Below are positions 13,974-43,904 of a stretch of 64,000 nucleotides of DNA, in pieces. The stretch comes from Bacteroidota bacterium (GTDB lineage: Bacteria; Bacteroidota; Ignavibacteria; UBA10030; CAVZMI01). Under the pieces are notes generated by a model that was given only the letters and a program-made list of their open reading frames with translations, had not been told where the DNA came from and searched no databases. Where the stretch lies: contig JBEKIL010000004.1 of the NCBI GenBank assembly GCA_050011775.1, forward strand, positions 99,825-163,824, in the 5' to 3' direction. The translations under genes were made by a program, and so were the position numbers. Every line of letters begins with the position of its first letter. The first letter of the stretch is position 1.

Positions 13974-13981
13974 TGAAGGGC

Positions 13982-19146: not shown

Positions 19147-19255
19147 CGGGCCCGTAGACGGGACTGCGCCGGCGACCTGTCCGCCGGAGTGAAACGAAGG
19201 CGGAAGCGAAACGCAGGCGAAAATCCCGCAAGTTGGGACGCAGGTGAGCAACTGC

Positions 19256-19355: not shown

Positions 19356-19779
19356 AAAATGTTTAAGGAAAAGAGAGCCATAAAAAGCGATACCAAAAAT
19401 AAATATTCAAACAAAATTATGAATGTATGCAAATTGGAATGAAATCAGTGCTGTCCAAAATAGATTATTATAAGTTGATAATCACTTCAAATATGTTGCT
19501 TAAGGTATAAGTATTTCGATTTATAAATTGGAGCCATAGAACAAAAATGGCCATTTCCATAATAATTAATTCCTTGATGACAAAATCGCTGGCGTGTAGC
19601 GGGAAGAAGGGAGGCCGTGTGTTGGCGCAATTTCGTGTGTTTCGATCGAGACTTATAAAAGCTATCGACTGAATATTCCTTAGATTAAAGGCCGAGATCG
19701 ACGGACTCGAATGTGCCATCACAACAGCGCGTGCTGGAGGCCATCTCACGTGGGTTGCGATTTTGTCAGGCTTTCTTTC

Positions 19780-19809
19780 TGTCCCTTTCTTTCCAGAAAG
19801 AAAGGGACA
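19780..19809. terminator. Perfect 13-bp hairpin, possible bidirectional terminator
   Basis: TGTCCCTTTCTTT-CCAG-AAAGAAAGGGACA. Confidence 0.5.
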
Positions 19810-19841
19810 AAATACTATAGCTCTTTCTGCAATTTATTTTG

Positions 19842-19956
19842 GACAAGTCTGGAATGAAATAATTTATAAGAAGAATTTTCACAGGAAAAGAAGATTGTAA
19901 AAAACATACCAAATTTGCCGACCACCGGACCTTGCATTTTCTCCAGTACTTCCTTA
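19842..19956. repeat. 115-bp dispersed repeat, copy 1 (copy 2 at 25933-26047)
   Basis: Ungapped hand alignment gives 96/115 identical. Confidence 0.85.
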
Positions 19957-19979
19957 CGTCGTGGTTTTTTAATAAGAGC

Positions 19980-20107
19980 ATACCTGCAACAATCACAGGC
20001 ATTCATTCGTAACTGTAATATATAAAGATATTGCGGTTACGATCGAATTCATTTAATAGCAATGAAGTAAATCGCCGAGATAAAGTGCATTGTTATGCAA
20101 GTTAGGC
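19980..20107 (+). other. Degenerate attC-like site
   Basis: Right end GAGATAAAGTGCATTGTTATGCAA-GTTAGGC resembles GAGACAAAGTACGCTGTTAAGCGA-GTTATGT at 15623-15653. Inner hairpin CGTAACTGTAAT/ATTGCGGTTACG. Left core not clear. Confidence 0.5.
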
Positions 20108-20291
20108 GCCAGTAGCTTCTCACCCAGATTCATCACAAAAGGAGCTTATATGCATTTTTCAAGGATAGGTTTACAGACGAAACATTTTATCTCTACGAGA
20201 ACAATCGTCAGTATAATTTCGGTCCTTACAACAAGTTAACTATGCCTGCTCCCGGCATTTTGCAGTTCATCGATTATGAAATCTGACAGGG

Positions 20292-21509
20292 TTGGGTGTT
20301 AATATGAAAAATCAATATTTATTATACATTTCATTGACAATATTAATTGCCCTGTTCAGTTCCTGCTGTTCCATTCCTAAACCACCAGATAATATTGTAA
20401 GTATTTCGGAACTTGAGGACTACCTTAACAAAGTAGTGGAATCCGGTACTCCTCCCGGTATGTCTTTAGCAGTGGTGAAGAACGGCAGTATTATATACAG
20501 CAAAGGCTTTGGCTGGGCTGACGAACCGCGGGAAATCTGCGCCGCACCAAAGACAGTGTATCATTGGTGGTCGTGTACAAAAATTGCCACCGCAATTGCC
20601 ATTCTTCAACTGAAGGAAAAGGGGAAGCTGTCTTTAAATGATCCGGTTGTCTTGCATCTCCCTTTTTTCAAAGTGAAGTACCCTTCCGACACCAGTAAGG
20701 AGGTAACCATTCTGAATCTCCTCAATCACAGTTCAGGATTGCCAGACCCGTCGGTTTTTACCTTTATACGCTGGATCCATCATGATGGAGAGCCCCCTGT
20801 TAATCAAACTGATTTTATAAAGAAAGTGCTTCCGGATTATTCTGAGCTCAAGTTTGAGCCTGGAGACCATGCTGAATATTCTAACATCGGTTATATGGTA
20901 CTGGGTGCTATTATTGAGAAGATAACAGGTATAGCTTATGAAGATTATATCCGGCAAAATATTCTTCGGCCGCTGGGAATGAACCACACCGATTTTCTCT
21001 ACACGAAAGCAATGGAACCGGACGAGGCAGCAGGTGCTCATCCAATATTTAATTTGATGAGTCCATTACTTCCCTTCGTTGGCGGATCATATATCCGTGA
21101 GCTTGACAACGATCATATATGGATGGAACGGGTTTACACAGACCAGACCCCATCCACAGGACTAATTGGTTCAGCTACAGATGCAGCTAGACTGGTCGCT
21201 GCATATTTGAATGGCGGAGTGTTTGATGGTCAACGAATACTATCGCAGGAATCAATTACAACAATGACGTATGAGGGGCAAATAAAAGCAAAGAATGAGG
21301 ATTCTCTAAACTACCGCAGGCAGGGAATCGGCTGGCAAATATATGGCAAATCTGGACGTTGGGTTCTTACGCATGATGGTGGCGGTCCTGGATTTAGTAC
21401 GAAAATTCAATTGTATCCGGATGAAAATCTCGGATTTGTTCTGTTCACAAATGACGCTACATGCGAAGCCTGGAAAATAATTAATTTAGCTGGTACCCTG
21501 AAATGGTGA
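20292..21509 (+). CDS. Serine hydrolase, beta-lactamase/AmpC-like family, probable lipoprotein
   Basis: Lipobox LFSSC, SxxK (SCTK), LLNHSSG, YSN, HDGGGPG. Real start is probably ATG 20304 (MKNQ). Confidence 0.88.
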   Translation: MGVNMKNQYLLYISLTILIALFSSCCSIPKPPDNIVSISELEDYLNKVVESGTPPGMSLAVVKNGSIIYSKGFGWADEPREICAAPKTVYHWWSCTKIATAIAILQLKEKGKLSLNDPVVLHLPFFKVKYPSDTSKEVTILNLLNHSSGLPDPSVFTFIRWIHHDGEPPVNQTDFIKKVLPDYSELKFEPGDHAEYSNIGYMVLGAIIEKITGIAYEDYIRQNILRPLGMNHTDFLYTKAMEPDEAAGAHPIFNLMSPLLPFVGGSYIRELDNDHIWMERVYTDQTPSTGLIGSATDAARLVAAYLNGGVFDGQRILSQESITTMTYEGQIKAKNEDSLNYRRQGIGWQIYGKSGRWVLTHDGGGPGFSTKIQLYPDENLGFVLFTNDATCEAWKIINLAGTLKW

Positions 21510-21633
21510 AATGAATATGTGTGTACTCAGATATAAATTAATATTACACGGCAATTTTACGGTGACATTTTATATTTCATATATTTATAATTTTATGCCA
21601 AAATATATTTAATCATTAATTAAAATAATTACC

Positions 21634-23076
21634 ATGAAAAAACTATTAATTATTCTTGTCTTCATTAACAGTATGTCTGTTAGTGTACATTCTCAGACAC
21701 AGAGACGATTCTCGGTAAAAGAGATAAAAAGTGACTTAGAGTATCTGCGCAGTACCCTGGAAGCTTCGCATTATAATCTTTATGCCTATACGAAAAAAGA
21801 AGTTTTTGACAGCGCATATAATAAAATAGAAAGTTCTATTAATGATTCACTAACCTCTATGCAGGCTTACAGACTTTTCCAACCCTATCTCGCATTGGCA
21901 AAGATAGGTGAATGTATAATCTTTTATCCTTTTGGTGAGTATTTTGGAAATTACCTAAGACAGGGTGGAACCGTATTCCCATTGAATCTGGGTTTCTCAA
22001 AAGGCAAGGTATTTGTCAAAGATAACTTTTCCAATGAATCCCAGATTTCCAAGGGCGATGAAATCCTGTCATTCAATGGAAAGCCGATCAAGGAATTCAT
22101 GGAAGGTGTTTATCGTTTCATGTCCGGTCAGAGTGAATACTATAAAAACTCTTATCTTGAAAACATAAACTTTTCAAGAATCTATTGGTTCATCTACGAC
22201 AAGTGCGATGTCTTTCATTTGGAAATCAAGAAAAAGGATGGAAGCAAAATAAAGGTGCAACTCCCCGCCATTTCGGGATGGGAATACGAAGGGAAACTCT
22301 CCAAACAATATCCTCCGCGCAATCCAGCGAGGGAATTCCGGCTCATTGATGACGTCGCCTATTTGTATCCGGGTGAATTTGTAAACAATCCGGGGAGACA
22401 CGATGACATGATGAGCCCGACAAAATGGGACAACACTGAATTCTGTCACTTTATTGATTCCGCGTTTACCGCATTTCGTAAAGCCGGAGCGAAGAACCTG
22501 ATCATTGATCTCAGAAATAACCTGGGCGGAGCCAACAACTTTAGCGATTACATGATTTCCTACATTGCGTCAAAACCATTTACGTTTTGCTCAAAAGCCA
22601 AGATCAGAACCAGCCGGATAACCAAAGACTTCTGGAAAAATATCAACATCCCGTCTCTCGAGGAAATGAAGCAGGCGATCCTTTCGCACGATGATGGCTC
22701 CCGCTTTGAAGTGTCCTTGCCCGAAAATCAGCCCCAACCCGATTCAATACGGTTTACGGGACATGTGTATGCCTTGATCAATCGATTCTCCATCTCCAAC
22801 ACGACATCCGTGGCGTCTGTCATTCAGGATTACCGTTTAGGCAAATTGATTGGCGAGGAGACGCCGGATTTCGTATCATTCTATGGAGGCACCCATCAGT
22901 TTAATTTACCAAATACACAACTCGCGGTTACCTATCCAAAGGGACTCATGATACGGCCGAATGGGGATACGACACCTCGGAGTATAATTCCCGATTACAT
23001 AGTCGAGGATAATATGTCAACTGATAAGGATGAGATATTGGATTATACATTGGAAACAATTGCTAAGAATAAATAA
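21634..23076 (+). CDS. S41 family peptidase, secreted
   Basis: Signal peptide, LIIDLRNNLGG, YALINRFSISN, GKLIGEET, IIPDYIV. Confidence 0.8.
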   Translation: MKKLLIILVFINSMSVSVHSQTQRRFSVKEIKSDLEYLRSTLEASHYNLYAYTKKEVFDSAYNKIESSINDSLTSMQAYRLFQPYLALAKIGECIIFYPFGEYFGNYLRQGGTVFPLNLGFSKGKVFVKDNFSNESQISKGDEILSFNGKPIKEFMEGVYRFMSGQSEYYKNSYLENINFSRIYWFIYDKCDVFHLEIKKKDGSKIKVQLPAISGWEYEGKLSKQYPPRNPAREFRLIDDVAYLYPGEFVNNPGRHDDMMSPTKWDNTEFCHFIDSAFTAFRKAGAKNLIIDLRNNLGGANNFSDYMISYIASKPFTFCSKAKIRTSRITKDFWKNINIPSLEEMKQAILSHDDGSRFEVSLPENQPQPDSIRFTGHVYALINRFSISNTTSVASVIQDYRLGKLIGEETPDFVSFYGGTHQFNLPNTQLAVTYPKGLMIRPNGDTTPRSIIPDYIVEDNMSTDKDEILDYTLETIAKNK

Positions 23077-23118
23077 AAACCTTAATTGAATCATTTAGTA
23101 AAATTAAAATCAAGTATT

Positions 23119-24231
23119 ATGAAAAACATCGTAATGAAAAGTATTTCTTATCTCCTTTTAATTTTTCTTGTTGTAATTTTTACAGCTTTCGATGAAAAGA
23201 AGAATGAAAGTGACAAGATAAAAACAGTAAATGGAAGTTTTATTTCTTTTTTAGAAATGGATAAATTCCTGCATTCTCAAATGGATTCAATAGGATTGCC
23301 CGGATTATCCATAGCCATAATCAATGATTCAAAAATCATCTACCATCGAACTTTAGGTGTAACCAATGTTGAAACAAAAGAGAAAGTATCAGAAGAAACC
23401 CTCTTTGATGCCGGTTCTTTATCAAAAACACCTTTTACCTATCTTGTAATGAAAATGGTTGAGAAAGGAATATTGAATTTGGATCAGCCTCTATATACTT
23501 ACTTACCATATCCTGATATTGCATATGACGATCGTTATAAATTAATAACGGCCCGCATGGTTTTGTGCCATACATCCGGCTTTGTCAATTGGAGGTTCCT
23601 TAATAAGGATAATAAGTTGGATATTAAATTTACACCTGGAACCCAGTTTCTCTATTCCGGAGAGGGTTTTGAGTATCTGGCAAATGTTGTGGCTTATCTG
23701 AAGAATATTAAAAAAAATGATCTTCAGGATTTATTTGAAAAAGAAGTTGCTGCTCCCCTAGGAATGCAATACGCTTTTTATACATGGAACGATTATGTAG
23801 AAAAACTGCGTGCGACTGGACATGTTGATGGTAAGGTTTTTTCTACAGAATGGGGTACAAGCACTAAAAATCCAAATTTTTATGCTGCATATAGCTTGCA
23901 GACGGAAGCAATAAGTTATGCCAAATTTCTAATTGCAATGATACGGGAAGAAGGATTGAAAAAAGCGACTTACGATGAGATGTTAAAAGTCCATGTCGAA
24001 ACTCCTTCCAAAACCGATAGTATTCCATACTGTCTTGGCATAAGGATGAAACACTCAGAGTTTGGTAATGAATACATGCATGATGGTGATAATTACAATT
24101 TTACTTGCGCTTTTATGTTCAACCAGGAACAAAAGTTCGGTTATGTATTTTTCACTAACTGTAATAAAGGAAGTGAGTTCAACAAAAAGTTGGAGCCATT
24201 TTTAACGGGAAAGGATGCCTCGCGAAGATAG
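23119..24231 (+). CDS. Serine hydrolase, beta-lactamase family
   Basis: SxxK (SLSK), VLCHTSG, YSGEG, HDG; signal peptide. Confidence 0.88.
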   Translation: MKNIVMKSISYLLLIFLVVIFTAFDEKKNESDKIKTVNGSFISFLEMDKFLHSQMDSIGLPGLSIAIINDSKIIYHRTLGVTNVETKEKVSEETLFDAGSLSKTPFTYLVMKMVEKGILNLDQPLYTYLPYPDIAYDDRYKLITARMVLCHTSGFVNWRFLNKDNKLDIKFTPGTQFLYSGEGFEYLANVVAYLKNIKKNDLQDLFEKEVAAPLGMQYAFYTWNDYVEKLRATGHVDGKVFSTEWGTSTKNPNFYAAYSLQTEAISYAKFLIAMIREEGLKKATYDEMLKVHVETPSKTDSIPYCLGIRMKHSEFGNEYMHDGDNYNFTCAFMFNQEQKFGYVFFTNCNKGSEFNKKLEPFLTGKDASRR

Positions 24232-24440
24232 GCACGTCTTTTCTTATTCCGACGTTCCGTCAAAACTCAACTTGATTTGCTGAGTCGGCTTTGCTACTTT
24301 TTTGGTGTTCATGCGATTGTTCCTTTCTGAGTTTAATGAATATGACAAGTTTGTTATTCTAAGAATATACATCGCCATGGGCTTTGTTACACCTCAGATT
24401 TCAACGAATAGCGGGACATCATCCCAAAAGAAGAAAAAAC

Positions 24441-25565
24441 ATGAAAAGAAATTATGTTGTTTGTTGCAGCTTGCTCCTAGTATTCATTGCGATCACATTA
24501 ACCACAACATTTGCCTTTAAAAAAGAAAATGCTGAAAAGATCAAAACTTTAAGCGGTAAAGAAATAACCGTGGCAGAAATGGATGAATATCTAAAAGCCC
24601 AAATGGATTCATTGAATATCAAAGGTATATCTATTGCTATTATCAATGATGCAAAGGTTGTATACCATCGTTCTTTTGGCATAGCTGATGCTTATTCTTT
24701 GGACACGGTGAATGATCAAACCTTATTTCAGGCGGCTTCCGTATCTAAATCAATATTCGCATATTTTGTAATGAAAATTGTAGAGAAAGGGTTGTTAGAT
24801 TTAGATACTCCTTTGTACCGGTATATGCCTTATCCGGATGCCGAGAGTGATCCACGCTATAAGCTAATTACGGCCCGCATGGTACTCTGCCATACATCAG
24901 GCTTTCCTAACTGGAGACCGAACTATACCGGGAAATTAGAAATAGAATTTACTCCCGGGACCAAATTTTCATATTCCGGCGAGGGTTACATGTATTTAAC
25001 GAAGGTCATAGCACATCTAACGAATACTGACTTGTCAAATCTAGATAGCGTATTTCAGCAGGAAGTCTGCAAACCGTTGAATCTGAAGCATGCATATTTT
25101 GGCATGAATAATTACGTAGCAAAACATTTGGCAAAGGGGCATGATGAAAATAAAATAGTTTATGACAAGGACTTTAATATAATAAATTTCAATTCAGCAG
25201 GAGGTTTATATACCGAAGCGATCAGTTTTGCAAATTTTCTTATCGCCGTAATGGAAAATAAAGGTTTGAAACAGGCAAACATCGATGAAATGCTTAAAAA
25301 ACAAGTAATAGTACCTAATGATGACAACCTAAGAAAGTACTCTGGTGTTATCGAATGGGGTCTTGGATTTGAGAGAAAACCTTCAATCTATGGAATAAAA
25401 ATTGCACATGGAGGAAATAATCAGGGCTTTTCATCATCATTTATGTTTAATAAAGAAAAAAAGTTTGGATATGTATTTTTTACCAATAGTAATTCATGCC
25501 ACAATTGGGGATGCCCCGAGTTATGGAGAAAATTAGAACCTTTTCTGATAGATCGCACTAAATAG
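24441..25565 (+). CDS. Serine hydrolase, beta-lactamase family (tandem paralogue of 23119-24231)
   Basis: SxxK (SVSK), KLITARMVLCHTSGF, FTPGT..YSGEG, HGG, KFGYVFFTN, KLEPFL shared with the upstream gene. Confidence 0.88.
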   Translation: MKRNYVVCCSLLLVFIAITLTTTFAFKKENAEKIKTLSGKEITVAEMDEYLKAQMDSLNIKGISIAIINDAKVVYHRSFGIADAYSLDTVNDQTLFQAASVSKSIFAYFVMKIVEKGLLDLDTPLYRYMPYPDAESDPRYKLITARMVLCHTSGFPNWRPNYTGKLEIEFTPGTKFSYSGEGYMYLTKVIAHLTNTDLSNLDSVFQQEVCKPLNLKHAYFGMNNYVAKHLAKGHDENKIVYDKDFNIINFNSAGGLYTEAISFANFLIAVMENKGLKQANIDEMLKKQVIVPNDDNLRKYSGVIEWGLGFERKPSIYGIKIAHGGNNQGFSSSFMFNKEKKFGYVFFTNSNSCHNWGCPELWRKLEPFLIDRTK

Positions 25566-31952: not shown

Positions 31953-32239
31953 CGAGCGAGAAGAACATGGCGTGCGAACATTGCGCCGCTCACAGAAATA
32001 AATGAGTCGTTATTAGTCCCGCCAACCCCACTGTGGAGCGTGGGGCGTAAAAAGCACGAATACGGCGGGATGCATAAAACGCATTCGCGGCGGAACGTCA
32101 TTTTTATGCGAAACATTTTGTTCCCTACACATGCTAAGGCCCAAATGGCAAACGATTGTTTTAAATTGTTTATGGGTTTTTCTACTTGAATAGAGATTAT
32201 TAGATCAAACCTTACCAACTACACGAAAGGAATATATTC

Positions 32240-35219: not shown

Positions 35220-35299
35220 ACGGGCCTGCACGCCGACCTGTTCGCCGAAATGGAGTGCAGGCGGAAGGGCCGCGTTCTAGCCCGCAGGCGGGCAACTGT

Positions 35300-35416
35300 A
35301 CATAACGGCGAAACAGTACTTTAGTACAACGGACACTGCAACACTTTGTCCAATCCTGCAGTCATTTTTAAAAGTTTTGTTCTGCGGACTCGACGTAATG
35401 CCCATGGACGTTGAGT
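35300..35416 (+). other. attC-like site with intact cores and poorly paired inner arms
   Basis: Left core ACATAAC (35300-35306), right core GTTGAGT (35410-35416). The interior shares AGTACTTTAGT(A/G)CAAC with the 15517 region. Confidence 0.5.
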
Positions 35417-35465: not shown

Positions 35466-36137
35466 ATGATCTCTACATTTCTCACAATCACCCGTTTTGT
35501 TGGCTTCCTTTTCACAATATACATTTGGCGTATAATTCAATACGGACAGTATTCTCAACTCACGTCATTCATCATAATTATTGGATCAGTCCTGCTGGTT
35601 TTCCCCGTAGTTTGGGTTGGACGGAAAGCGATCGATGTCCAACCATCGATCCAGCGTCTCGCCTGGATAACAAGCTTTGTTCATACAATACTGATGATTT
35701 TCTTTGGCGCTTCTGTTATCGAAGCCATTAAATTTTTTCAAGTCTCACGCGGCATAACTATACCATTGCCGGTTGAAGTCGGAACGGTACTGCTTTATAT
35801 TACTGGTGCATGTTTATCGTTGACCGTCGTAAATCTTGCATTAAGCGGACTCGGTGCACCCTTTGCTATTGCGTTGAGCAAACGCCTTGCAGATCGCTGG
35901 ATGTACAGATGGACAAGAAATCCGATGGTCTTGTGCTCTCTCGCTACGCTTATTTCCATTGGCCTGTACTTGCAGTCTTTTTATTTTATTTTCTGGGTTA
36001 TTATACTTTTAACACCGGCATGGATTTACTTTCTCAAAGCATATGAAGAACGCGAGCTTGAAATCCGTTTTGGTGCATCATACCAGGACTACAAAGCCAG
36101 GACTTCTTTCTTCTGGCCAAGAAAGCCGAAGAGATAG
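35466..36137 (+). CDS. Isoprenylcysteine carboxylmethyltransferase / PEMT-family membrane protein
   Basis: Multiple TM helices, MYRWTRNPM, EEREL..RFGASYQDYKARTSFFWP. Confidence 0.85.
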   Translation: MISTFLTITRFVGFLFTIYIWRIIQYGQYSQLTSFIIIIGSVLLVFPVVWVGRKAIDVQPSIQRLAWITSFVHTILMIFFGASVIEAIKFFQVSRGITIPLPVEVGTVLLYITGACLSLTVVNLALSGLGAPFAIALSKRLADRWMYRWTRNPMVLCSLATLISIGLYLQSFYFIFWVIILLTPAWIYFLKAYEERELEIRFGASYQDYKARTSFFWPRKPKR

Positions 36138-36303
36138 AATCAAGCCGTAGCACAACGAACGCACAACAGTTAAAAACATGATCCGTTTCCCGCGGAGCGA
36201 GAGATGAGACTATAATTGAAAAAAATAAAATACCCTCCGGACTCATAAATCGAGACTTCTGAATAACATATCCGGTCGGAGAAAAATGAATGCCGAATGA
36301 ATG

Positions 36304-36460
36304 GCCACGACCTTCAGGTCGTGGATTTTTAAATCCAAAAAATCTTTGCGGGCTTTAGCCCTACATCAATCTAATGTGGGGTTAAAACCCCTCATTTTTC
36401 TCCTCTTATTTCCCACGAGCTACTCGCCTCGCTCCGCTTCAGCGGAGCAGGAAGCTCGTG
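36304..36460. repeat. Cluster of REP-like palindromes
   Basis: CCACGACC-TTCA-GGTCGTGG (36304), GGGCTTTAGCCC (36350), GGGGTTAAAACCCC (36378), CACGAGCT..CTCGCCTCGCTCCGCTTCAGCGGAGCAGG..AGCTCGTG (36414-36460). Confidence 0.7.
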
Positions 36461-36770
36461 GCAATTCAGAAAATACAGATTGTTTTAGACCACTGGCTCA
36501 AGTGTGTCCATAGAAAATATATAAACAGAGTTTTTCAGACGTCTCAAATCGTCAATCCCGAAGGGTCGTAGACATAAATCATCAATATCAATGGCCATTT
36601 CATACTTTGGTTTGCATTTCCCCTCGTAATTTCTTACGTTCTAACAGAAATTACACATACTTCCTTCAGTCGATACTAGAGGGGCTTCGATTACGAAATT
36701 GTCTGTCCCACGTTTACTTGCACGGCACGGATAAGTCGAAGACCATTAAAGCATACAGAGGCTGACAGGT

Positions 36771-36846
36771 ACATCCAAAAGAAATAAATACGCTATACCA
36801 CGAAGTGGTACTGTTCCACCGTATAGCGTCTTTACAGATGTTATAC
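36771..36846 (+). other. Degenerate attC-like site
   Basis: AAATACGCTATAC pairs with GTATAGCGTCTTT (12/13), outer ACATC/GATGT, right core GTTATAC at 36840. Confidence 0.55.
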
Positions 36847-36878
36847 GCCATGTGCCCGTCATATTTACAGAGGATCGA

Positions 36879-37364
36879 ATGGAATGGATATCCGGAATTA
36901 TTAGCATCGGAAATAAACTTTTTCCGTGGATTGGGAAAATATGGAACAAACGCCGCTTTGGTCCTCGAATTCAACTAGACCTGAGCTGGGATCATCCACA
37001 AATCTACATTGCCGGTGAACCTATTAGAACATGGCGAACCCTTTTGATCCAGGCAATAGGCGCAAAAGAAAGTGAGTATGAGATAGCATCGGGTTATTTA
37101 GAAGCACGAGAATTCAACACGAAAAAATTTATCCTAATTACAGATTTATCAAACTTGATTCTACTACCACTACACCTAGATGCTAATCGACAAAAAGATT
37201 TTGAAATAGATGGAACAACGGTGACAAAGCATCTTCGTCGTATTTTTAAGGAAAATACTCCAATAGAAATTCGTGTGAATGTTCAGGATTATTACGGCAC
37301 ACGAATAATCAGCAAACCATTTCAAGTTACTATAACTGAATTGGAGCGCAAGGAAACTCGATGA
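36879..37364 (+). CDS. Hypothetical protein (161 aa), sole ORF of a complete cassette
   Basis: RBS AGAGG before ATG 36879; bounded by attC-like sites; no recognisable motif. Confidence 0.7.
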   Translation: MEWISGIISIGNKLFPWIGKIWNKRRFGPRIQLDLSWDHPQIYIAGEPIRTWRTLLIQAIGAKESEYEIASGYLEAREFNTKKFILITDLSNLILLPLHLDANRQKDFEIDGTTVTKHLRRIFKENTPIEIRVNVQDYYGTRIISKPFQVTITELERKETR

Positions 37365-37419
37365 GAAGTCCCTGTCTAATAATAGACTATATAATTGAAT
37401 ATTATACGGGCACACGGGC

Positions 37420-37585
37420 GTATAACAAGCGTGCCCACGACGGTCGCACATTTGCTAAAGCTTTTGTAAATTCGATTTGAGAATAGATAATAGTGCTCCC
37501 TCAATACCATGCCGGAGCTTAGAGTATAAATAATTCATTCGCAAGTTACCGGCATGGTACTGCGTGGGCACGCCAGACGTTATGT
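37420..37585 (+). other. attC recombination site (166 bp)
   Basis: GTATAAC-AA-GCGTGCCCACG ... CGTGGGCACGC-CAGAC-GTTATGT: perfect 11-bp inner arms plus complementary ATAAC/GTTAT cores. Confidence 0.8.
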
Positions 37586-37612
37586 GAAATTGTGCCCCTC
37601 AAGGAAAATACA

Positions 37613-40216
37613 ATGGATAAAAAATTTTTATTCAAACTTTCGAGTACACCAACAACGACTTACTCCGATGCCGAAGTATTATTCCGAGACCTAAAAAACC
37701 GTGATCCGAAAATTCAACATCTTTGGTCCCACCAAGCTGATATTCTGAGGGAATATCATAGGAGCATTGATCAAATTGACATCGCACTCGAATTACCTAC
37801 AGGTGCCGGCAAAACACTAGTCGGCTTGCTTATTGCTGAGTGGCGCAGACTTTCCCTCAATCAACGGGTTGCCTACCTTTGCCCTACTCGCCAGCTTGCA
37901 TACCAAGTTGGCCAAAAAGCTACTGAATATGGAATAAAGGCACATGTCTTGGTCGGATCACAATCTCTATATCCCGCAGGTCAATTTGCAGAATATGCGT
38001 CAGCGAAAGCCATTGCTGTGACTACTTATTCGGGTTTTTTCAACACGAATCCAAGAATCGATCGGCCTGAGACTGTCGTGTTCGATGATGCCCATGCTGG
38101 TGAGAATTATATTGCTAAAATGTGGTCAATGAATATATCTCGTTTTGACAACAAGACTTTATTCGATCAGATCGTGGATCTGTTTTGCTCGGAACTACCC
38201 GATTACTCAATTAGTACTTTAAAAGATGATGATGCTAGACCATATCAGAGACAGTTGGTTGAAATGGTTCCAGTTCCAAGATTCCTTAAAAAATTACAAC
38301 CACTAACAGACCTTCTGGACGCCTCAACAGCAGATACCGAACTCGCTTACCCTTGGAGTTTGATAAGAAATAAGCTGGCAGCTTGTTGTGTTTTTTTCTC
38401 TTGGTCTGATATTCTAGTCCGGCCTTGGATACCTCCAACATTAACTCATCTTCCATTTGCCTCTTCGAAGCAAAGGATCTATATGTCTGCAACTATCGGT
38501 GCAGGCGGCGAGCTTGAGCGTATTATTGGAGTGCCTTCGATTCATAGAATTCCAGTTCCTCAAGGTTGGGATAAACAGAGCACTGGCAGGAGGTTGTTCA
38601 TTTTCCCGGATCATTCCTTCTCCTATACTGAGTACGATGATTGGTTGACGAGGACTTTGGATTCAAAGGAACGATCGCTAGTGCTCACACCGCATGGTTT
38701 ATCCTTGCGATCTTTTTTGGAAACAATGGCACAATTCGGCCTCACTCACCAGATACTTAAAGCACAAGACGTCGAAGAAACATTAGATCCCTTTATAAAT
38801 TCCTCAAACGTTCTTCTTGCTCTGACGAATCGCTATGATGGCATCGATTTGCCTGGTGATAGTTGTAGAATATTGGTTGTCTACGGATTACCCACGGCTG
38901 TGAATCTCCAAGAAAGATTCCTATGGACAAAACTCGGTCTTACCACTGTACTTAAAGATAGAATCAGAACCAGAATCACCCAAGCAGTCGGTCGATGTAC
39001 TCGCAACTCCACAGATTATGCAGTGGTGCTAATGATTGGAGAATCATTATTCGATTTCTGTGTAAAACACGAGAATAGGTCAGAACTTCACCCAGAACTA
39101 CGTGCAGAGATAGACTTTGGAATTGATAATTCTAGCCAATCTAACATAGGCGAATTGACTGCTTTGATTGAATTGTTCTTAAATCGCGACGCGTCTTGGA
39201 ATCAAGCAGAAGCAGACATTAGCAAGAGACGAGATGAGACGCTCCATCCCCCACCCGCCTATGTCGGAGTTCTACGGACAGTAGTCCATTACGAAGTAGA
39301 CTATCAATATGATCTGTGGAAAGAAGATTATTCTCAAGCTTTAGTGAAGGCGACTACTATTATTGACAATCTTTCTGGCGACGAGCTGGCCGGATATAGG
39401 GCTTTATGGAATTATTTTGCAGGATGCGCTTCATATCAACTTGGTCTTGTATCAGGAAAGAATGAAATGATACAAACCGCTGCAGACCGGTTCTTACGTG
39501 CATCACAGGCTGTCCGTACATTATCCTGGTTCGCCCGTTTAGCTCACGAATTCGGTGCAACACCGACCCGGCAATCTCAATCTCAATACCTTACAGTACT
39601 AGCGACTGAATTTATCAATTCCTATTTGATGAATTTGGGGACTGTTGGAAGACGCTTTGATAAAGTATTATCAGAGTTTGAATCTAAAATCCGAGTTACG
39701 GATTCTGATAGTTTTGATCAAGGATTAACCGAACTTGGTAAAATGTTAGGATTCGATGCCGAAAAACCCGAAGGCGTAGGAGTCCCTGATAGCGTTTGGC
39801 GTATTGGTGGAGAGTTCGTGCTTCTATTTGAATCAAAGAGTGATGAAAGCCCAGATGATAAGATATCCATCAGAACCTGTAGACAAGCGCAAGGCCATTT
39901 GAATTGGGAGCGATCCAGACCATTCTTTACCCAAAACGCCAAACTTCATTGTATTGTTGTCACTCCCCGTTCAGTGCTCGATAAGGCCGCTTTGCCACAT
40001 TCCGATAATCTCTATTATCTTTCATCGGACGCCATTAGAAAACTCTTCAGAGAAGCCGATGCTTGTTTACGACTGATTAGGAGTAAATCACCCGACCTGG
40101 AAAGCGAGCAACGGCTTGGGTTAATTCAAGCCGAACTTCTACAGGCACAATTGATACCTGAAGCAATTATTAAGCATTTAACTTCAACTCGGCTTGCTGA
40201 TATAACATGCAAATGA
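37613..40216 (+). CDS. SF2 (DinG/XPD-like) helicase with C-terminal PD-(D/E)xK nuclease, Hna-like candidate anti-phage protein
   Basis: Q motif LWSHQ, LPTGAGKT, YLCPTRQL, VFDDAH, MSAT, DGIDLP, QAVGRCTR; nuclease PD-x13-ESK. Start placed at ATG 37613 after AAGGA. Confidence 0.8.
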   Translation: MDKKFLFKLSSTPTTTYSDAEVLFRDLKNRDPKIQHLWSHQADILREYHRSIDQIDIALELPTGAGKTLVGLLIAEWRRLSLNQRVAYLCPTRQLAYQVGQKATEYGIKAHVLVGSQSLYPAGQFAEYASAKAIAVTTYSGFFNTNPRIDRPETVVFDDAHAGENYIAKMWSMNISRFDNKTLFDQIVDLFCSELPDYSISTLKDDDARPYQRQLVEMVPVPRFLKKLQPLTDLLDASTADTELAYPWSLIRNKLAACCVFFSWSDILVRPWIPPTLTHLPFASSKQRIYMSATIGAGGELERIIGVPSIHRIPVPQGWDKQSTGRRLFIFPDHSFSYTEYDDWLTRTLDSKERSLVLTPHGLSLRSFLETMAQFGLTHQILKAQDVEETLDPFINSSNVLLALTNRYDGIDLPGDSCRILVVYGLPTAVNLQERFLWTKLGLTTVLKDRIRTRITQAVGRCTRNSTDYAVVLMIGESLFDFCVKHENRSELHPELRAEIDFGIDNSSQSNIGELTALIELFLNRDASWNQAEADISKRRDETLHPPPAYVGVLRTVVHYEVDYQYDLWKEDYSQALVKATTIIDNLSGDELAGYRALWNYFAGCASYQLGLVSGKNEMIQTAADRFLRASQAVRTLSWFARLAHEFGATPTRQSQSQYLTVLATEFINSYLMNLGTVGRRFDKVLSEFESKIRVTDSDSFDQGLTELGKMLGFDAEKPEGVGVPDSVWRIGGEFVLLFESKSDESPDDKISIRTCRQAQGHLNWERSRPFFTQNAKLHCIVVTPRSVLDKAALPHSDNLYYLSSDAIRKLFREADACLRLIRSKSPDLESEQRLGLIQAELLQAQLIPEAIIKHLTSTRLADITCK

Positions 40217-40229
40217 GGGGCACAACTTC

Positions 40230-40341
40230 ATATAACAGCGGGCACCACGACACTTCATTCAAGCCCGCCACGGTGCAGTTATTAAATGGGTCGTTCGCCA
40301 TATCCCGTGTCGGGCTTGCGTGGTGCCCGCACACGTTATGC
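40230..40341 (+). other. attC recombination site (112 bp)
   Basis: ATATAAC-A-GCGGGCACCACG ... CAAGCCCG ... CGGGCTTG-CGTGGTGCCCGC-ACAC-GTTATGC: perfect 12-bp and 8-bp arms. Confidence 0.85.
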
Positions 40342-40428
40342 GCCACGCGGCTTGTTGTCTAGTCGACTAAATTCGTCATGCCTAAAAATGGCGGGAATCT
40401 TGCCCCCAGAAATAAAAGGAGGAAAACC

Positions 40429-41376
40429 ATGAAGAGCTACATGAAGCTCGGAATTCTTGCGCTCGCACTTGCGTGCTCAGTGCGAGCTCAATCGGTGCAA
40501 GGATCAGCAGAGGGAAAGCAAGCAGTGGAAGTACTCCCCCGGGCCACAGTCACCGTGCTGGTGGACAACATGGTAGGTCGCGGAGATGTGCTCGGCGAAT
40601 GGGGTGCCGCATTTCTGATCAACACAGACCAGCACCAGATTCTCTTCGATACTGGTGGGGGACAAGTCCTCATCGGAAATTCCCGAGCCCTTGGTGTGGA
40701 TCTCGCCAAAACTGAAGCCATTGTCATCAGCCATGGGCATCCGGATCACACAGGGGGACTCGATGCTGCTTTGAATGTCTGCAAGTCTGTGGATTTATTT
40801 GTTCACCCAGCCGTTTTCGAGACTAGATATTATAAGGGAGATTCAGGCGCGGTGGCTTATAGCTTCGTTTTCACCAGACAACAACTGCTTCAACGAGTTC
40901 GCAATCTGGTTGAGACGAAGGGACCGACTCTCATTTCTGAACGAGTAATGGTCACGGGCCAGGTTCCCCGACTAAACGATTTTGAAGATACCGGTTTGCG
41001 CGGGTACGTTTTCCTTGACAGCAGTTTGACAATAGAAGATCCAATTCCGGATGATCAAGCCGTGTTCTTCCGCGTTCCAGAGGGAGTCGTTATATTGCTC
41101 GGATGCGGCCACGCCGGGCTGGTCAATACAATGGAGTATGTATGCAAGCTAACGGGTGAGCAGCACATCTACGCGGTCATTGGCGGCACTCATTTGCTTA
41201 ATGCTTCTCCCTCGCGTATGCTAAAGACTATCGAAGCGCTGCGGATGTACGACGTACAGAAGATCATGCTGTCGCATTGTACCGGCCTTCGCGCATACGC
41301 ACAGCTGGCAAATGCTTTTCCAGGTCGATGCAGCTGGCCGGCTAGTGGAACCACAATCAAGTTCGGTTCTCAGTAA
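40429..41376 (+). CDS. MBL-fold metallo-hydrolase (COG1237-like) with a signal peptide
   Basis: VLVDN, GEWG, ILFDTG, SHGHPDHTGG, GCGHAG, GGTHL, HCTG. Start placed at ATG 40429 after GGAGG. Confidence 0.85.
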   Translation: MKSYMKLGILALALACSVRAQSVQGSAEGKQAVEVLPRATVTVLVDNMVGRGDVLGEWGAAFLINTDQHQILFDTGGGQVLIGNSRALGVDLAKTEAIVISHGHPDHTGGLDAALNVCKSVDLFVHPAVFETRYYKGDSGAVAYSFVFTRQQLLQRVRNLVETKGPTLISERVMVTGQVPRLNDFEDTGLRGYVFLDSSLTIEDPIPDDQAVFFRVPEGVVILLGCGHAGLVNTMEYVCKLTGEQHIYAVIGGTHLLNASPSRMLKTIEALRMYDVQKIMLSHCTGLRAYAQLANAFPGRCSWPASGTTIKFGSQ

Positions 41377-41479
41377 TCTGTGATGTGAAATGCTGGAAGA
41401 TATGATGCAACAGTGAAGTGGTTCACTACACGGCGGGCAGGCGCTTCCGCCAAAAGATTCCGCCAGACCCTAAAGGGCC

Positions 41480-41759
41480 GTAAATCCCACTGGAAAGTGT
41501 GGGACGAGAAAAACCGGAACACGGAAACGGCGGACGCACATCCCACTGAATAGAGTGGGACGAAAGAGATCGAAACGCGACAGCATGGCGGACCCGCTCC
41601 GCCTCGAGATGCTCGGCAGAGCGAGGCGAGCAGACGCACGCTGGATAGGCGATGTTGAAGCAAAGGTTGGCTAAATATAAAGTGCTCGATTGCTCGCCGC
41701 CACGAAATCGAGTAAGTCGTAGTGGCGGCTCGCAACGGCAGTTTGCCTAAACGTTAAGT
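41480..41759 (+). repeat. REP-rich structured spacer ending in an attC right core
   Basis: Two TCCCACT..GTGGGACG hairpins, REP CCCGCTCCGC..GCAGAGCGAGGCGAG (41593-41630), GCCGCCAC/GTGGCGGC, TAGGC/GCCTA, right core GTTAAGT at 41753. Confidence 0.6.
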
Positions 41760-43615: not shown

Positions 43616-43674
43616 TAGGATGTCTCTTTAAATGTAACTAGTGATCATGGCAATTGTCATTTTAATCGAGCTGC

Positions 43675-43904
43675 GCATAACACGCATGGTTACGATGCCC
43701 GCCTTCGTCACGACCAATTCCGTCGTGACTCCGGCGGGTAAACTGACAGCTGGTTTCGACGGACTCAATACCGATAAAGTGCAGGTATTGAATGAGTCGT
43801 TTGCCGCGGCCTGGCCCGGGGTGAATCGGCAGGCTCATCACAGAATCGGTCGAGGGCGGGTAAGTTACGGGGTCGGGGCAGCATGGGCACGTCAGACATT
43901 ATCT
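43675..43904 (+). other. Degenerate terminal attC-like site
   Basis: Left core GCATAAC. Right end CATGGGCACGTCAGAC-ATTATCT resembles CGTGGGCACGCCAGAC-GTTATGT at 37563. Internal hairpin CCCGCC..GTCACGAC/GTCGTGAC..GGCGGG (43698-43738). Confidence 0.55.

What the first reader, a model, noticed from the sequence alone, without database searches (positions are those of the whole stretch)
37613..40216. Hna-like SF2 helicase/nuclease packaged as a complete single-gene cassette: candidate anti-phage system
Seen: full SF2 motif set with a DDAH Walker B and a DinG/XPD-type motif VI (QAVGRCTR), no obvious Fe-S cysteine cluster, and a C-terminal PD-x13-ExK nuclease motif (PDSVW..FESK). It is bounded by the two best attC sites. 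Established: Hna of Sinorhizobium meliloti is a single-gene SF2 helicase plus PD-(D/E)xK nuclease giving abortive-infection phage resistance, and integron cassettes are known to carry defence genes. Inference: this is an Hna-family or related defence gene that was recently mobile, since its sites are the least decayed in the array.
Basis: partly seen in the sequence, partly recalled or inferred. Interest (0 to 1): 0.7.

Follow-up and report, generated by a model that had tools for sequence, protein, structure and literature searches.

The report
Hna anti-phage gene in integron-type cassette
The gene is an intact but distant member of the known Hna helicase-nuclease family of bacterial anti-phage defence genes, and it is packaged as one integron-type gene cassette in an uncultured Ignavibacteriales-like genome: a correct first reading and a new member of a known kind.

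Summary
Window 37613-40216 (+) is one intact 867-aa ORF with a full SF2 motif set, no Fe-S cysteine cluster, and a C-terminal PD-x13-ExK nuclease motif.

The Hna interpretation holds too, now by direct test:
- The protein hits both PADLOC PDC-S28 models end to end (E 4e-122).
- The characterised S. meliloti Hna (SMa2245) hits the same two models.
- BLASTP against that Hna gives 25% identity over 823 residues (E 3e-43).
- The AlphaFold model (pLDDT 86.6) matches the Hna cryo-EM structure best, at full length (TM 0.66-0.69). DinG/XPD match only the helicase core.
- Query K742 aligns with catalytic K729 of Hna.

Close homologues sit in an ICE-like element, beside a type I R-M specificity gene and a NACHT-like ATPase, and between CBASS and type III R-M genes. 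They share no synteny.

The two flanking palindromes are by far the best attC-like sites in the window. Each cassette's first bases pair with its own end rather than its neighbour's, which fits a G|TT crossover.

No integrase lies within the 64 kb, so this is an attC cluster without an integrase, not a complete integron. "Recently mobile" is unproven, and defence activity is inferred.

The parts
37613..40216 (+). hna-like gene: 867-aa single-polypeptide SF2 helicase plus PD-(D/E)xK nuclease (stop TGA at 40214-40216)
   Evidence: ORF. PADLOC PDC-S28 E 3.9e-122 over the full length. BLASTP to S. meliloti Hna 25% identity over 823 aa, E 3e-43. Foldseek top hit is the Hna monomer 9yhn, E 6e-40.
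37796..37816 (+). Walker A / motif I, PTGAGKT (residues 62-68)
   Evidence: Translation. P62, T63, G64, G66, K67 and T68 are invariant in 35 homologues.
38084..38095 (+). Motif II, DDAH (residues 158-161)
   Evidence: Invariant D158 D159 A160 H161. Aligns with DDAH of S. meliloti Hna.
38666..39040 (+). Second RecA-like lobe (Pfam Helicase_C_2, residues 352-476), including motif VI QAVGRCTR (residues 457-464, nt 38981-39004)
   Evidence: Pfam PF13307 E 8.3e-10. Q457, G460, R461, T463 and R464 are invariant.
39092..39703 (+). All-helical linker region (about residues 494-697) between helicase and nuclease; the part least conserved relative to S. meliloti Hna
   Evidence: AlphaFold secondary structure. 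This stretch falls outside the two matched stretches in the HMMER comparisons with Hna.
39704..40024 (+). [quoted passage not shown] Catalytic motif P725-D726...E740-S-K742 at nt 39785-39838
   Evidence: Secondary structure H698-711, E715-717, E727-731, E735-741, H753-767, E777-784. D726, E740 and K742 are invariant. K742 aligns with catalytic K729 of Hna (PMC13381803).
37420..37585 (+). attC-like site A, belonging to the upstream 170-aa cassette. R'' GTATAAC 37420-37426, L'' 37429-37439, L' 37563-37573, R' GTTATGT 37579-37585. Inferred crossover between G37579 and T37580
   Evidence: Hairpin fold z -4.33. Inner stem -28.6 kcal/mol against a window background of about -20. Compensatory changes relative to site B.
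37580..40335 (+). Inferred hna cassette (2756 bp): 33-nt leader, ORF, then its own attC. The stop codon lies inside the outer stem of the attC
   Evidence: Own-end complementarity: 37586-37601 pairs with 40214-40229 at 15/16, against 4/16 for the neighbouring cassette's start. R box 6/7 against 5/7 (I4, 25, 75).
37586..37601 (+). Outer-stem arm at the cassette start (GAAATTGTGCCCCTCA)
   Evidence: Complementary to 40214-40229.
40214..40229 (+). Outer-stem arm just before R'' of the cassette's own attC (TGAGGGGCACAACTTC)
   Evidence: inverted repeat I4.
40230..40341 (+). attC-like site B, belonging to the hna cassette. R'' ATATAAC 40230-40236, L'' 40238-40249, L' 40319-40330, R' GTTATGC 40335-40341
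   Evidence: Hairpin fold z -5.65, 0 of 200 shuffles as stable. Inner stem -29.4 kcal/mol, the best in the window.
36841..37579 (+). Neighbouring upstream cassette (ORF 36852/36879-37364, 161-170 aa, no family hit). It shows the same own-end complementarity
   Evidence: R'' against its own-start R' 7/7, against 5/7 for the array neighbour, plus a 16/19 outer extension. No Pfam or PADLOC hit.

Best explanation
Window 37613-40216 encodes a functional-looking, divergent member of the Hna family (PADLOC PDC-S28, DefenseFinder Hna). Hna is a stand-alone anti-phage abortive-infection protein.

Shown here:
- It belongs to the family by sequence, by profile and by fold.
- All helicase and nuclease catalytic residues are intact.
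- It stands alone, with no conserved partner gene.
- Its close homologues lie in mobile elements and defence islands.

Inferred from the biochemistry of S. meliloti Hna (PMC13381803):
- The two RecA-like lobes bind ATP and single-stranded DNA.
- With cellular ATP the protein sits in an auto-inhibited state.
- During infection a phage product, for S. meliloti Hna a phage single-stranded-DNA-binding protein, releases the C-terminal PD-(D/E)xK domain. In the query this would use D726, E740 and K742.
- The nuclease then degrades DNA from free 3' single-stranded ends, which blocks phage replication and kills or arrests the cell.

The gene is packaged as one 2.76-kb integron-type cassette (37580-40335): a short leader, the ORF, and its own attC-like hairpin. 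The cassette lies in a cluster of attC-like sites with no integrase within 64 kb.

Moving it now would need an integrase encoded elsewhere. Expression must come from read-through or from a promoter in the upstream site.
For: Family membership.
- PADLOC PDC-S28 models PDLC04987 (407 bits) and PDLC04986 (384 bits) match over the full length.
- S. meliloti Hna (SMa2245, L031:3827-6361) hits the same two models, at 400 and 1020 bits.
- PDC-S28 and Hna are assigned to the same proteins in PMC11811056.
- phmmer against PDB 10uj_A (Hna) gives E 5e-41. The family profile gives E 2.7e-70, with profile positions 11-534 aligned to Hna 10-540 and 693-828 aligned to 676-810.
- BLASTP gives 25% identity over 823 aa, E 3e-43.
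- The AlphaFold model has pLDDT 86.6 and pTM 0.83.
- Foldseek ranks 9yhn 'Hna Monomer' first (E 6e-40, TM 0.66/0.69, 887 columns). The first non-Hna hit (DinG) has E 3e-13, and DinG/XPD hits have query TM about 0.35.

Catalytic integrity. Walker A, DDAH, motif VI, D726, E740 and K742 are invariant in 35 homologues. K742 aligns with K729, which is nuclease-dead when mutated.

Defence context of homologues.
- The 81%-identical homologue lies in an ICE-like element with TraG/TrwB, a serine recombinase and SymE.
- The 76% homologue lies next to a type I R-M specificity gene (HsdS) and a large NACHT-like ATPase.
- The 62% homologue lies between type II CBASS-like genes (patatin plus an E1/E2/JAB protein) and type III R-M-like genes.
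- The 59% homologue lies near an OLD-family nuclease and next to an attC array.
- 242 plasmids carry homologues.

Cassette.
Against: - No experiment bears on this protein. Identity to the only biochemically studied Hna is 25% by BLASTP and 21% in the structural alignment.
- The three residues shown to mediate the auto-inhibitory dimer in S. meliloti Hna (T30, D31, P34) align with P32, K33 and H36 here. Regulation may therefore differ.
- The helical linker (about residues 535-692) does not align in the HMMER comparisons.
- None of the six nearby proteins scanned in this window is a known defence protein.
- No promoter above chance was found for the gene.
- No integrase is present.
- The attC-like sites differ from textbook attC sites. 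Each R box departs from consensus at one position, the central spacer is asymmetric (1-2 nt against 4-5 nt), and there is an extra outer stem.
- They could not be scored with IntegronFinder's attC model.
Confidence: 0.8

Rival explanations
1. It is a housekeeping DinG/XPD/YoaA-type DNA-repair helicase that happens to lie in a variable region.
For: The Pfam Helicase_C_2 domain and a DinG/XPD-type motif VI are present. DinG, XPD and CasDinG structures are significant Foldseek hits (E 1e-11 to 1e-13).
Against: - No NCBIfam repair-helicase model comes near its cutoff. The best, dinG_rel, scores 18.9 bits against a cutoff of 547.7.
- There is no Fe-S cysteine cluster.
- DinG/XPD matches cover only the helicase core at TM about 0.35, whereas Hna covers the full length at 0.66-0.69.
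- The C-terminal PD-(D/E)xK domain is conserved.
- Homologues share no synteny.
Confidence: 0.03
2. It is an Hna-family enzyme, but here it serves the mobile element or cell in another way, for example plasmid or conjugation interference, or addiction-like stabilisation of the array, rather than phage abortive infection.
For: The closest homologue (81%) lies inside an ICE-like element next to a SymE-type toxin. Many homologues are on conjugative plasmids (113 of 242 records). The dimer-interface residues differ from those of S. meliloti Hna. Large integron arrays are known to carry stabilising toxin-antitoxin cassettes (general knowledge).
Against: The only experimental data for the family are anti-phage (PMC13381803, PMC12445080). 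Homologues lie between CBASS and R-M genes and next to R-M and NACHT genes, which is typical of defence islands. Carriage on mobile elements is also typical of defence genes.
Confidence: 0.1
3. The flanking palindromes are not integron attC sites. They are a species-specific intergenic hairpin repeat (REP-like, terminator-like, or the target of a Xer-like recombinase), and the gene is an ordinary island gene rather than a cassette.
For: - No IntI lies in 64 kb.
- The R boxes deviate from consensus, and an unusual third (outer) stem carries the same GGGCAC motif as the inner stem.
- A metagenome scan with the 3' half-site found no related arrays.
- None of the close homologues examined has such flanks.
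- A related genome carries a short Xer-like, IntI-like recombinase, not a canonical IntI, next to radA.
Against: - Two adjacent units each begin with a sequence complementary to their own end and not to their neighbour's. The switch falls at the GTT of a GTTRRRY-like box. That is the signature of attC x attC or attI recombination, and REP elements or terminators do not explain it.
- Five double compensatory changes keep the inner stem paired while its sequence is inverted between sites A and B. This indicates selection on the hairpin structure.
- The ORFs point toward their sites, and GC content differs between units.
Confidence: 0.15

Closest known systems
Hna of Sinorhizobium meliloti (SMa2245 on pSymA; PDB 10UJ, 9YHN, 9YKJ)
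   Same: - Single polypeptide of about 850 aa.
- HEL1 and HEL2 SF2 lobes with Walker A, DDAH and QxxGRxxR motifs.
- No Fe-S cluster.
- C-terminal PD-(D/E)xK core with the D...ExK motif in register (K742 aligns with K729).
- Same PADLOC models.
- Collinear alignment over 823 residues.
- Best structural match.
- Carried on mobile DNA.
   Different: - Only 25% identical.
- The query scores about equally on both PDC-S28 sub-models, whereas S. meliloti Hna clearly belongs to PDLC04986 (1020 bits).
- The helical linker is not alignable in the HMMER comparisons.
- Dimer-loop residues T30, D31 and P34 are replaced by P32, K33 and H36.
- The host is an Ignavibacteriales-like bacterium, and the vehicle is an attC-bounded cassette rather than a megaplasmid locus.
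Bacteriophage resistance integron cassettes (BRiCs; Kieffer et al., bioRxiv 10.1101/2024.07.02.601719) and defence cassettes of sedentary chromosomal integrons
   Same: A defence gene packaged as a cassette with its own attC. As reported for BRiCs, close homologues exist outside integrons without attC sites (here).
   Different: - No integrase lies within 64 kb.
- The cassette is large for an integron cassette (2.76 kb; the size comparison rests on general knowledge).
- The sites are non-canonical.
- No paper in the searched library combined integron, cassettes, Hna and 'phage defense'.
- The host phylum lies outside the Proteobacteria studied in those papers.
ExoDinG / DinG / XPD and type IV CRISPR CasDinG (Csf4) helicases
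   Same: Same SF2 subfamily fold for the helicase core, with the Helicase_C_2 domain. S. meliloti Hna is described as resembling 3'-5' exonucleolytic 'ExoDinG' proteins (PMC13381803).
   Different: - No Fe-S domain.
- Per PMC13381803, Hna has only a reduced Arch domain; this was not checked on the query model.
- The nuclease is a C-terminal PD-(D/E)xK, not an N-terminal DnaQ-type exonuclease.
- The PADLOC typeIV_DinG hit covers only residues 273-476 (E 7e-18).
- No cas genes are nearby.
Other helicase-nuclease defence systems (Hachiman HamAB, Nhi, Cas3)
   Same: General logic: an SF helicase sensor coupled to a nuclease effector. Several of these are triggered by phage SSB or DNA damage (PMC13381803 introduction).
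   Different: PADLOC hits to HamB and Cas3 are marginal (E 1e-5 to 1e-2) and confined to the Walker A region. Hachiman needs a separate HamA nuclease subunit (PMC10925250 abstract). Nhi is a different helicase superfamily by general knowledge.

Membership tests
Hna (DefenseFinder Hna = PADLOC PDC-S28) | Matches the family HMMs over the full length, as the founding member does | tested here: met
   Query: PDLC04987 407 bits and PDLC04986 384 bits, covering residues 18-862 and 9-858. S. meliloti Hna: 400 and 1020 bits on the same models. DefenseFinder's own HMM was not available. The equivalence is taken from PMC11811056, supplementary file 6.
Hna (DefenseFinder Hna = PADLOC PDC-S28) | Collinear sequence homology to experimentally characterised S. 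meliloti Hna | tested here: met
   BLASTP 25% identity over 823 aa, E 3e-43. phmmer E 5e-41. Family profile E 2.7e-70.
Hna (DefenseFinder Hna = PADLOC PDC-S28) | Architecture: N-terminal SF2 HEL1 and HEL2 plus C-terminal PD-(D/E)xK in one polypeptide of about 850 aa, without an Fe-S cluster | tested here: met
   Pfam domains, AlphaFold secondary structure, and a single Cys between motifs I and II. The architecture of Hna is as described in PMC13381803.
Hna (DefenseFinder Hna = PADLOC PDC-S28) | Fold matches the solved Hna structure better than any other helicase | tested here: met
   Foldseek: 9yhn E 6e-40, TM 0.66/0.69. The next family (DinG/XPD) has E about 1e-13 and TM about 0.35.
Hna (DefenseFinder Hna = PADLOC PDC-S28) | Intact ATPase motifs and nuclease catalytic residues, including the Lys equivalent to K729 | tested here: met
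   K67, D158, D159, H161, Q457, R461, R464, D726, E740 and K742 are invariant in 35 homologues. K742 aligns with K729.
Hna (DefenseFinder Hna = PADLOC PDC-S28) | ATP-stabilised auto-inhibitory dimer through the HEL1 loop (T30, D31, P34 in S. meliloti Hna) | tested here: inconclusive
   The equivalent loop exists and is predicted disordered (pLDDT below 50 at residues 34-36). It is conserved within the query's subfamily (R30, L37, W38, H40, Q41). The three named residues, however, align with P32, K33 and H36.
Hna (DefenseFinder Hna = PADLOC PDC-S28) | Confers phage resistance by abortive infection; triggered by phage SSB | not testable with these tools
   Needs expression with a phage panel and SSB co-expression.
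Hna (DefenseFinder Hna = PADLOC PDC-S28) | Stand-alone gene with variable, mobile-element or defence-island neighbourhoods | tested here: met
   Six different contexts among homologues of 59-81% identity. 242 plasmid records carry homologues.
Integron gene cassette | attC with inverse-core RYYYAAC (R'') and core GTTRRRY (R') at its ends | tested here: inconclusive
   ATATAAC/GTATAAC and GTTATGC/GTTATGT each depart from the consensus at one (complementary) position.
Integron gene cassette | The single strand folds into an imperfect hairpin (R and L stems, unpaired spacer, variable loop); structure rather than sequence is conserved | tested here: met
   DNA folds with z -5.65 and -4.33. Five double compensatory changes in the 11-12-bp L stem between sites A and B. 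The spacer is asymmetric, 1-2 nt against 4-5 nt. Extrahelical bases could not be assigned.
Integron gene cassette | Cassette boundary at G|TT of R', so that the first bases of a cassette belong to its own attC | tested here: met
   hna cassette: own start against own end 15/16 plus R box 6/7, compared with 4/16 and 5/7 for the neighbour. The 170-aa cassette gives 7/7 against 5/7. Background alignment scores are 19-24, against 36 and 31.
Integron gene cassette | One mostly promoterless ORF oriented toward its attC | tested here: met
   33-nt leader, stop codon inside the outer stem of the attC. No promoter-like site inside the cassette leader.
Integron gene cassette | Integron integrase (IntI) and attI adjacent to the array (complete integron) | tested here: not met
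   No Phage_integrase domain in any plausible ORF of 120 aa or more; short ORFs nested on the opposite strand inside larger genes were not scanned. tblastn with the IntI-like recombinase of a related genome finds nothing in the window. This fits an attC cluster lacking an integrase. The rest of the genome could not be read.
Integron gene cassette | Scores above threshold with IntegronFinder's attC covariance model | not testable with these tools
   The model is not in Rfam, and the Rfam scan of the window found nothing.
Housekeeping DinG/XPD/YoaA helicases | 4-Cys Fe-S domain, curated family score, conserved synteny | tested here: not met
   One Cys in the relevant segment. NCBIfam best 18.9 bits against a cutoff of 547.7. 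No synteny.
Type IV CRISPR CasDinG (Csf4) | Full-length Csf4 match and adjacent csf/cas genes | tested here: not met
   PADLOC typeIV_DinG covers only residues 273-476. TIGR03117 scores 17.7 bits against a cutoff of 400. No cas genes among the neighbours.

The most novel reading that the evidence does not exclude
The locus may belong to a non-canonical, integron-like cassette system of Ignavibacteriales-type bacteria.
- Its recombination hairpins carry a third, outer stem with the same GGGCAC motif as the inner stem, and an R box of type TATAAC/GTTATA.
- They might be serviced not by a classical IntI but by a short (304 aa) IntI-like, XerA-like tyrosine recombinase that lacks the IntI-specific insertion.
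- Such a gene sits exactly at the radA-proximal edge of the variable region in a related genome (L028).
- In that reading the hna cassette would be the first Hna-type defence gene shown to be cassette-borne, and an unusually large one.
Probability: 0.15. Interest if true: 0.6.

Novelty: new member of a known kind. Interest (0 to 1): 0.35.

Why it matters
Hna is a recently characterised single-protein abortive-infection system, reported in about 2% of sequenced bacterial genomes.

This copy extends the family to a distant branch: 25% identity to the studied protein, in an uncultured Ignavibacteriales-like host. It keeps every catalytic residue but changes the residues of the auto-inhibitory dimer interface. 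That makes it a useful natural variant for asking which regulatory features are general.

It also adds a large, well-known defence gene to the growing list of phage-defence genes carried as integron-type cassettes. Clean sequence evidence marks the cassette boundaries, and close relatives in an ICE-like element and in defence islands lack such sites. This supports the idea that defence genes are recruited back and forth between islands and cassette arrays.

None of this changes current understanding. It confirms and extends it.

Tried and rejected
- Looking for an 'Hna' model by name in PADLOC gave nothing at E<=1. This was resolved by showing that PDC-S28 is the Hna family.
- A metagenome-wide scan with the 3' half of the attC-like site (TGGGCACGYCAGACRTTAT) returned four unrelated coding or eukaryote-like hits.
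- The genome-contig scan with the protein returned only 34-40% identical homologues, mostly alphaproteobacterial. It did not return the source genome, so the host could not be identified that way. The host was placed through RadA homologues instead.
- Exact-sequence look-ups of the two neighbouring cassette proteins, meant to find strains with or without the hna cassette, returned only the same arrangement. No presence/absence polymorphism was found, so 'recently mobile' stays untested.
- Related genomes reached through RadA show either different genes next to radA (L027) or a contig end after a recombinase gene (L028). Neither carries the window's attC-like sites within reach.
- The promoter scan gave 11 sites against 8.4 expected, which is no evidence.
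- The site near 43666-43903 does not fold as one hairpin (z -1.3), and I treat it as decayed.
- My first attC heuristic, requiring at least 6/7 R-box pairing, missed site A. The relaxed version was used.
- I considered a resemblance between the R' regions and XerC/D dif half-sites and dropped it. Only one arm matches, and IntI and Xer sites share that core anyway.
- Rfam and tRNA scans of the window were empty.


Full report
**1. What is in the sequence**

The finding's coordinates are right. The ORF listing gives an ORF 37592..40216 on the + strand from a GTG. The in-frame ATG at 37613 yields 867 aa. Independent gene calls on public contigs with the identical protein use that start, and so does the consensus N-terminus of homologues.

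The translation contains the following:
- PTGAGKT, residues 62-68.
- DDAH, residues 158-161.
- QAVGRCTR, residues 457-464.
- VPDSVW...LLFESK, with D726, E740 and K742 and exactly 13 residues between D and E.

Only one cysteine lies between motifs I and II, so there is no Fe-S module. Pfam finds DEAD (53-162), ResIII, and the DinG/XPD-type Helicase_C_2 domain (352-476).

**2. Which family**

NCBIfam gives nothing near any curated cutoff. The best hit, a DinG-related model, scores 18.9 bits against a cutoff of 547.7.

PADLOC gives two end-to-end hits to the candidate system PDC-S28, at E 3.9e-122 and 3.9e-115. The next hit, type IV CasDinG, has E 7e-18 and covers only residues 273-476. No model named Hna appears.

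Three lines of evidence show that PDC-S28 is the Hna family.
- A survey of Bacillus cereus-group genomes lists the same proteins (EEM49825.1, EDX62926.1) as 'Hna' in DefenseFinder and 'PDC-S28' in PADLOC (PMC11811056, supplementary file 6).
- Hna of S. meliloti is SMa2245 on pSymA (PMC12445080). I fetched it (L031:3827-6361, 845 aa). It hits the same two PADLOC models, PDLC04986 at 1020 bits and PDLC04987 at 400 bits.
- The PDB entries 10UJ and 9YKJ are the Hna cryo-EM structures (PMC13381803). The query matches that chain at E 5e-41. A profile of 35 homologues matches it at E 2.7e-70, with profile positions 11-534 aligned to Hna 10-540 and 693-828 aligned to 676-810.

BLASTP of the query against SMa2245 gives 25% identity over 823 residues, collinear from the Walker A region to near the C-terminus, with E 3e-43.

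**3. Structure**

An AlphaFold2 model built on the 35-sequence alignment has mean pLDDT 86.6 and pTM 0.83.

Foldseek against the PDB ranks 'Hna Monomer' 9yhn first (E 6e-40, TM 0.66/0.69, 887 aligned columns). The two chains of the Hna dimer come next. DinG, XPD and CasDinG follow at E 1e-11 to 1e-13 and query TM about 0.35, matching the helicase core only.

**4. Conservation**

All ATPase motifs and D726, E740 and K742 are invariant across homologues of 42-81% identity.

K742 aligns with K729 of S. meliloti Hna, whose K729A mutant lacks all exonuclease activity.

The residues that form the ATP-stabilised auto-inhibitory dimer interface in S. meliloti Hna (T30, D31, P34) align with P32, K33 and H36 here. 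The loop itself is present. It is predicted disordered and is conserved within the query's own subfamily.

**5. Family size and neighbourhoods**

- The word-indexed search found at least 4369 90%-identity clusters at E<=1e-5 among the 8000 candidates scored.
- The exhaustive profile search found 1316 50%-identity clusters at E<=1e-30.
- 242 plasmid records carry homologues, 113 of them on conjugative plasmids.

Neighbourhoods of the closest homologues all differ:

| Homologue | Identity | Neighbourhood |
|---|---|---|
| P0002 | 81% | ICE-like element with TraG/TrwB, a PD-(D/E)xK protein, a SymE-type toxin and a large serine recombinase |
| P0004 | 76% | Type I R-M specificity subunit and a 1926-aa NACHT-like ATPase |
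| P0005 | 72% | Unrelated small genes |
| P0011 | 62% | Between type II CBASS-like genes (patatin, E1/E2/JAB) and type III R-M-like genes |
| P0018 | 60% | After alaS |
| P0016 | 59% | Near an OLD-family ATPase-nuclease, and 1.3 kb from seven canonical attC sites |

There is no conserved partner gene and no housekeeping synteny. In the window itself the neighbouring proteins have no PADLOC hits.

**6. The cassette**

Both junctions of the gene carry a long imperfect palindrome.

- Site A spans 37420-37585. It reads GTATAAC-AA-GCGTGCCCACG ... CGTGGGCACGC-CAGAC-GTTATGT.
- Site B spans 40230-40341. It reads ATATAAC-A-GCGGGCACCACG ... CGTGGTGCCCGC-ACAC-GTTATGC.

As single-stranded DNA they fold into extended hairpins, with z -4.33 for A and -5.65 for B and none of 200 shuffles as stable.

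In a window-wide scan for AAC...GTT-bounded hairpins, their inner stems score -28.6 and -29.4 kcal/mol. Every other candidate on either strand scores about -20 or weaker. The next plausible site is 19246-19355 at -19.3.

Between A and B the inner stem differs at five positions by double compensatory changes, so the motif GTGCCC becomes GGGCAC while pairing is kept. That points to selection on the hairpin, which is the hallmark of attC sites.

The strongest evidence is the register of complementarity.
- The 16 nt after the GTTATGT box at the start of the hna unit (37586-37601) pair 15/16 with the 16 nt just before the ATATAAC box at its end (40214-40229).
- The 16 nt after the next junction pair only 4/16.
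- The R boxes pair 6/7 with the unit's own start, against 5/7 with the neighbour's.
- The upstream 170-aa unit behaves the same way, at 7/7 against 5/7 plus a 16/19 extension.

This is what recombination at G|TT of an attC predicts, because the first bases of each cassette are the tail of its own attC. It defines a 2756-bp cassette, 37580-40335, made of a 33-nt leader, the ORF and the attC.

**7. What is missing or odd in the cassette reading**

No tyrosine recombinase is encoded anywhere in the 64 kb. Pfam scans covered every plausible ORF of 120 aa or more, and tblastn with a related recombinase found nothing. The flanks are ordinary chromosomal genes: radA, a Ham1-family gene, metH and queG to the left, and a methylase, an aminotransferase and an aldehyde dehydrogenase to the right.

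The locus is therefore a cluster of attC-like sites without an integrase, not a complete integron.

The sites also differ from textbook attC sites.
- Each R box departs from consensus at one position.
- The unpaired spacer is asymmetric.
- There is an extra outer stem carrying the same GGGCAC motif as the inner stem.

I could not score the sites with IntegronFinder's model.

The other 'sites' of the array are decayed. The one near 43666-43903 no longer folds as a hairpin. The cassettes at 40336-41752 and beyond show no own-end complementarity.

GC content varies between units, at about 42% for hna, 50% for the next unit and 36% for the one after. This fits separate origins.

'Recently mobile' could not be tested. 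All public contigs carrying the identical proteins show the same arrangement.

**8. Host and relatives**

RadA homologues place the window in an uncultured Ignavibacteriales-like lineage. The named hits, at about 70% identity, are Ignavibacteriales or Bacteroidota genome bins. The many type IX secretion sorting domains in the region fit that placement.

- A genome whose RadA fragment is 99% identical over the 87% of the query it covers has entirely different genes next to radA, including a HEPN-domain protein. The interval next to radA is therefore hypervariable.
- In a genome with 94%-identical RadA, the contig ends just after a 304-aa tyrosine recombinase gene. That gene sits where the window's variable region begins and points toward it.
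- This recombinase scores best on the integron-integrase model TIGR02249 (247.5 bits, just under the cutoff of 265). It passes NF040815, 'tyrosine recombinase/integron integrase'.
- Its Lys-to-His spacing of 67 residues is like Xer recombinases, so it lacks the IntI-specific insertion (my count).
- This is a lead on what may service the sites. It is not evidence.

**9. Mechanism**

Shown here: membership in the Hna family, intact catalytic sites, stand-alone organisation, and mobile-element or defence-island contexts among relatives.

Inferred from S. meliloti Hna (PMC13381803):
- Mg2+-dependent 3'-5' exonuclease activity on single-stranded DNA ends.
- Inhibition by ATP binding through dimerisation.
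- Release of that inhibition by a phage single-stranded-DNA-binding protein.
- An abortive-infection outcome.

Because the dimer-interface residues differ, the regulatory step is the least secure part of this transfer.

**10. Verdict**

The gene is a new, distant member of a known defence family. Its cassette packaging is well supported, but the locus lacks an integrase, and the recency of any movement is unknown. This is a good annotation with modest novelty.

Noticed in passing
L028:25-939 (related genome, RadA 94% identical; contig end): A 304-aa tyrosine recombinase sits directly beside radA, where the window's variable region begins, and is transcribed toward it. It scores best on the integron-integrase model TIGR02249 (247.5 bits, cutoff 265) and passes NF040815. 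Its Lys-to-His spacing is Xer-like, so it lacks the IntI-specific insertion. The window has no trace of this gene.
   Followed up: partly
L023:11900-17885 (contig carrying the 59%-identical homologue P0016 at 8001-10616): Seven regularly spaced canonical attC sites (CCTAAC-A..CTCGAGCT ... CGAGAC-GTTAGGC, about 122 nt each) each follow a small minus-strand ORF. The array ends 1.3 kb from the Hna homologue, which lies outside it in the opposite orientation.
   Followed up: partly
window 40378/40429-41376 (+): The next cassette encodes a metallo-beta-lactamase-fold protein with a signal-peptide-like N-terminus (MKSYMKLGILALALACSVRAQ). It has a weak precomputed Pfam hit to Anti-Pycsar_Apyc1 (PF23023). 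GC content here is about 50%, against about 42% for hna.
   Followed up: no
L030:414-4893 and 11684-16008: The 62%-identical Hna homologue lies between type II CBASS-like genes (patatin effector, an E1/E2/JAB protein and a 368-aa protein that is a possible cyclase) and type III restriction-modification-like genes (ResIII helicase plus N6/N4 methylase).
   Followed up: no
window 19246-19355 and 19146-19250 / 35220-35300: A third, weaker attC-like hairpin (GCGGGCACTATG ... CGTAGTGCCCGC-ATAT-GTTACTT) follows the first large secreted-protein gene. It is preceded by a GC-rich segment that recurs after the secreted-protein gene ending at 35219. About 940 nt with no ORF of 120 aa or more follows (19355-20292).
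   Followed up: partly
window 32017-32064, 41476-41523, 41532-41579: Three copies of a roughly 48-nt element with a small hairpin (CCCACTG..AGTGGG) lie in two separate intergenic regions of the plus-strand gene block (repeat finder family D14).
   Followed up: no
window 15537-15590: A tandem duplicated hairpin motif (GTAGTCCCGCGAAGCGGGGCRACGAA, two copies) lies in the 315-nt gap between radA and the first gene of the plus-strand block.
   Followed up: no
window 20292-25565 (+): Three serine beta-lactamase-fold (PF00144) genes, the last two clearly paralogous at the DNA level (repeat families D15, D19, D20), with an S41 peptidase gene between the first and second. All of it lies inside a 28-kb one-directional block rich in type IX secretion-tailed proteins.
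   Followed up: no
window 17761-18840 (+): Six or more tandem 156-nt coding repeats (FG-GAP-type) lie inside the 1164-aa secreted protein gene 15652-19146.
   Followed up: no
window 36137-36840: About 700 nt between the PEMT-like gene and the 170-aa cassette has no ORF of 100 aa or more. It holds two terminator-like hairpins (36305-36324, 36378-36391) and may be the remains of decayed cassettes.
   Followed up: no
L027:1158-2537: In the genome with 99%-identical RadA, the region next to radA carries different genes, including a HEPN_LA2681-domain protein. The radA-adjacent interval is therefore a strain-variable hotspot.
   Followed up: partly
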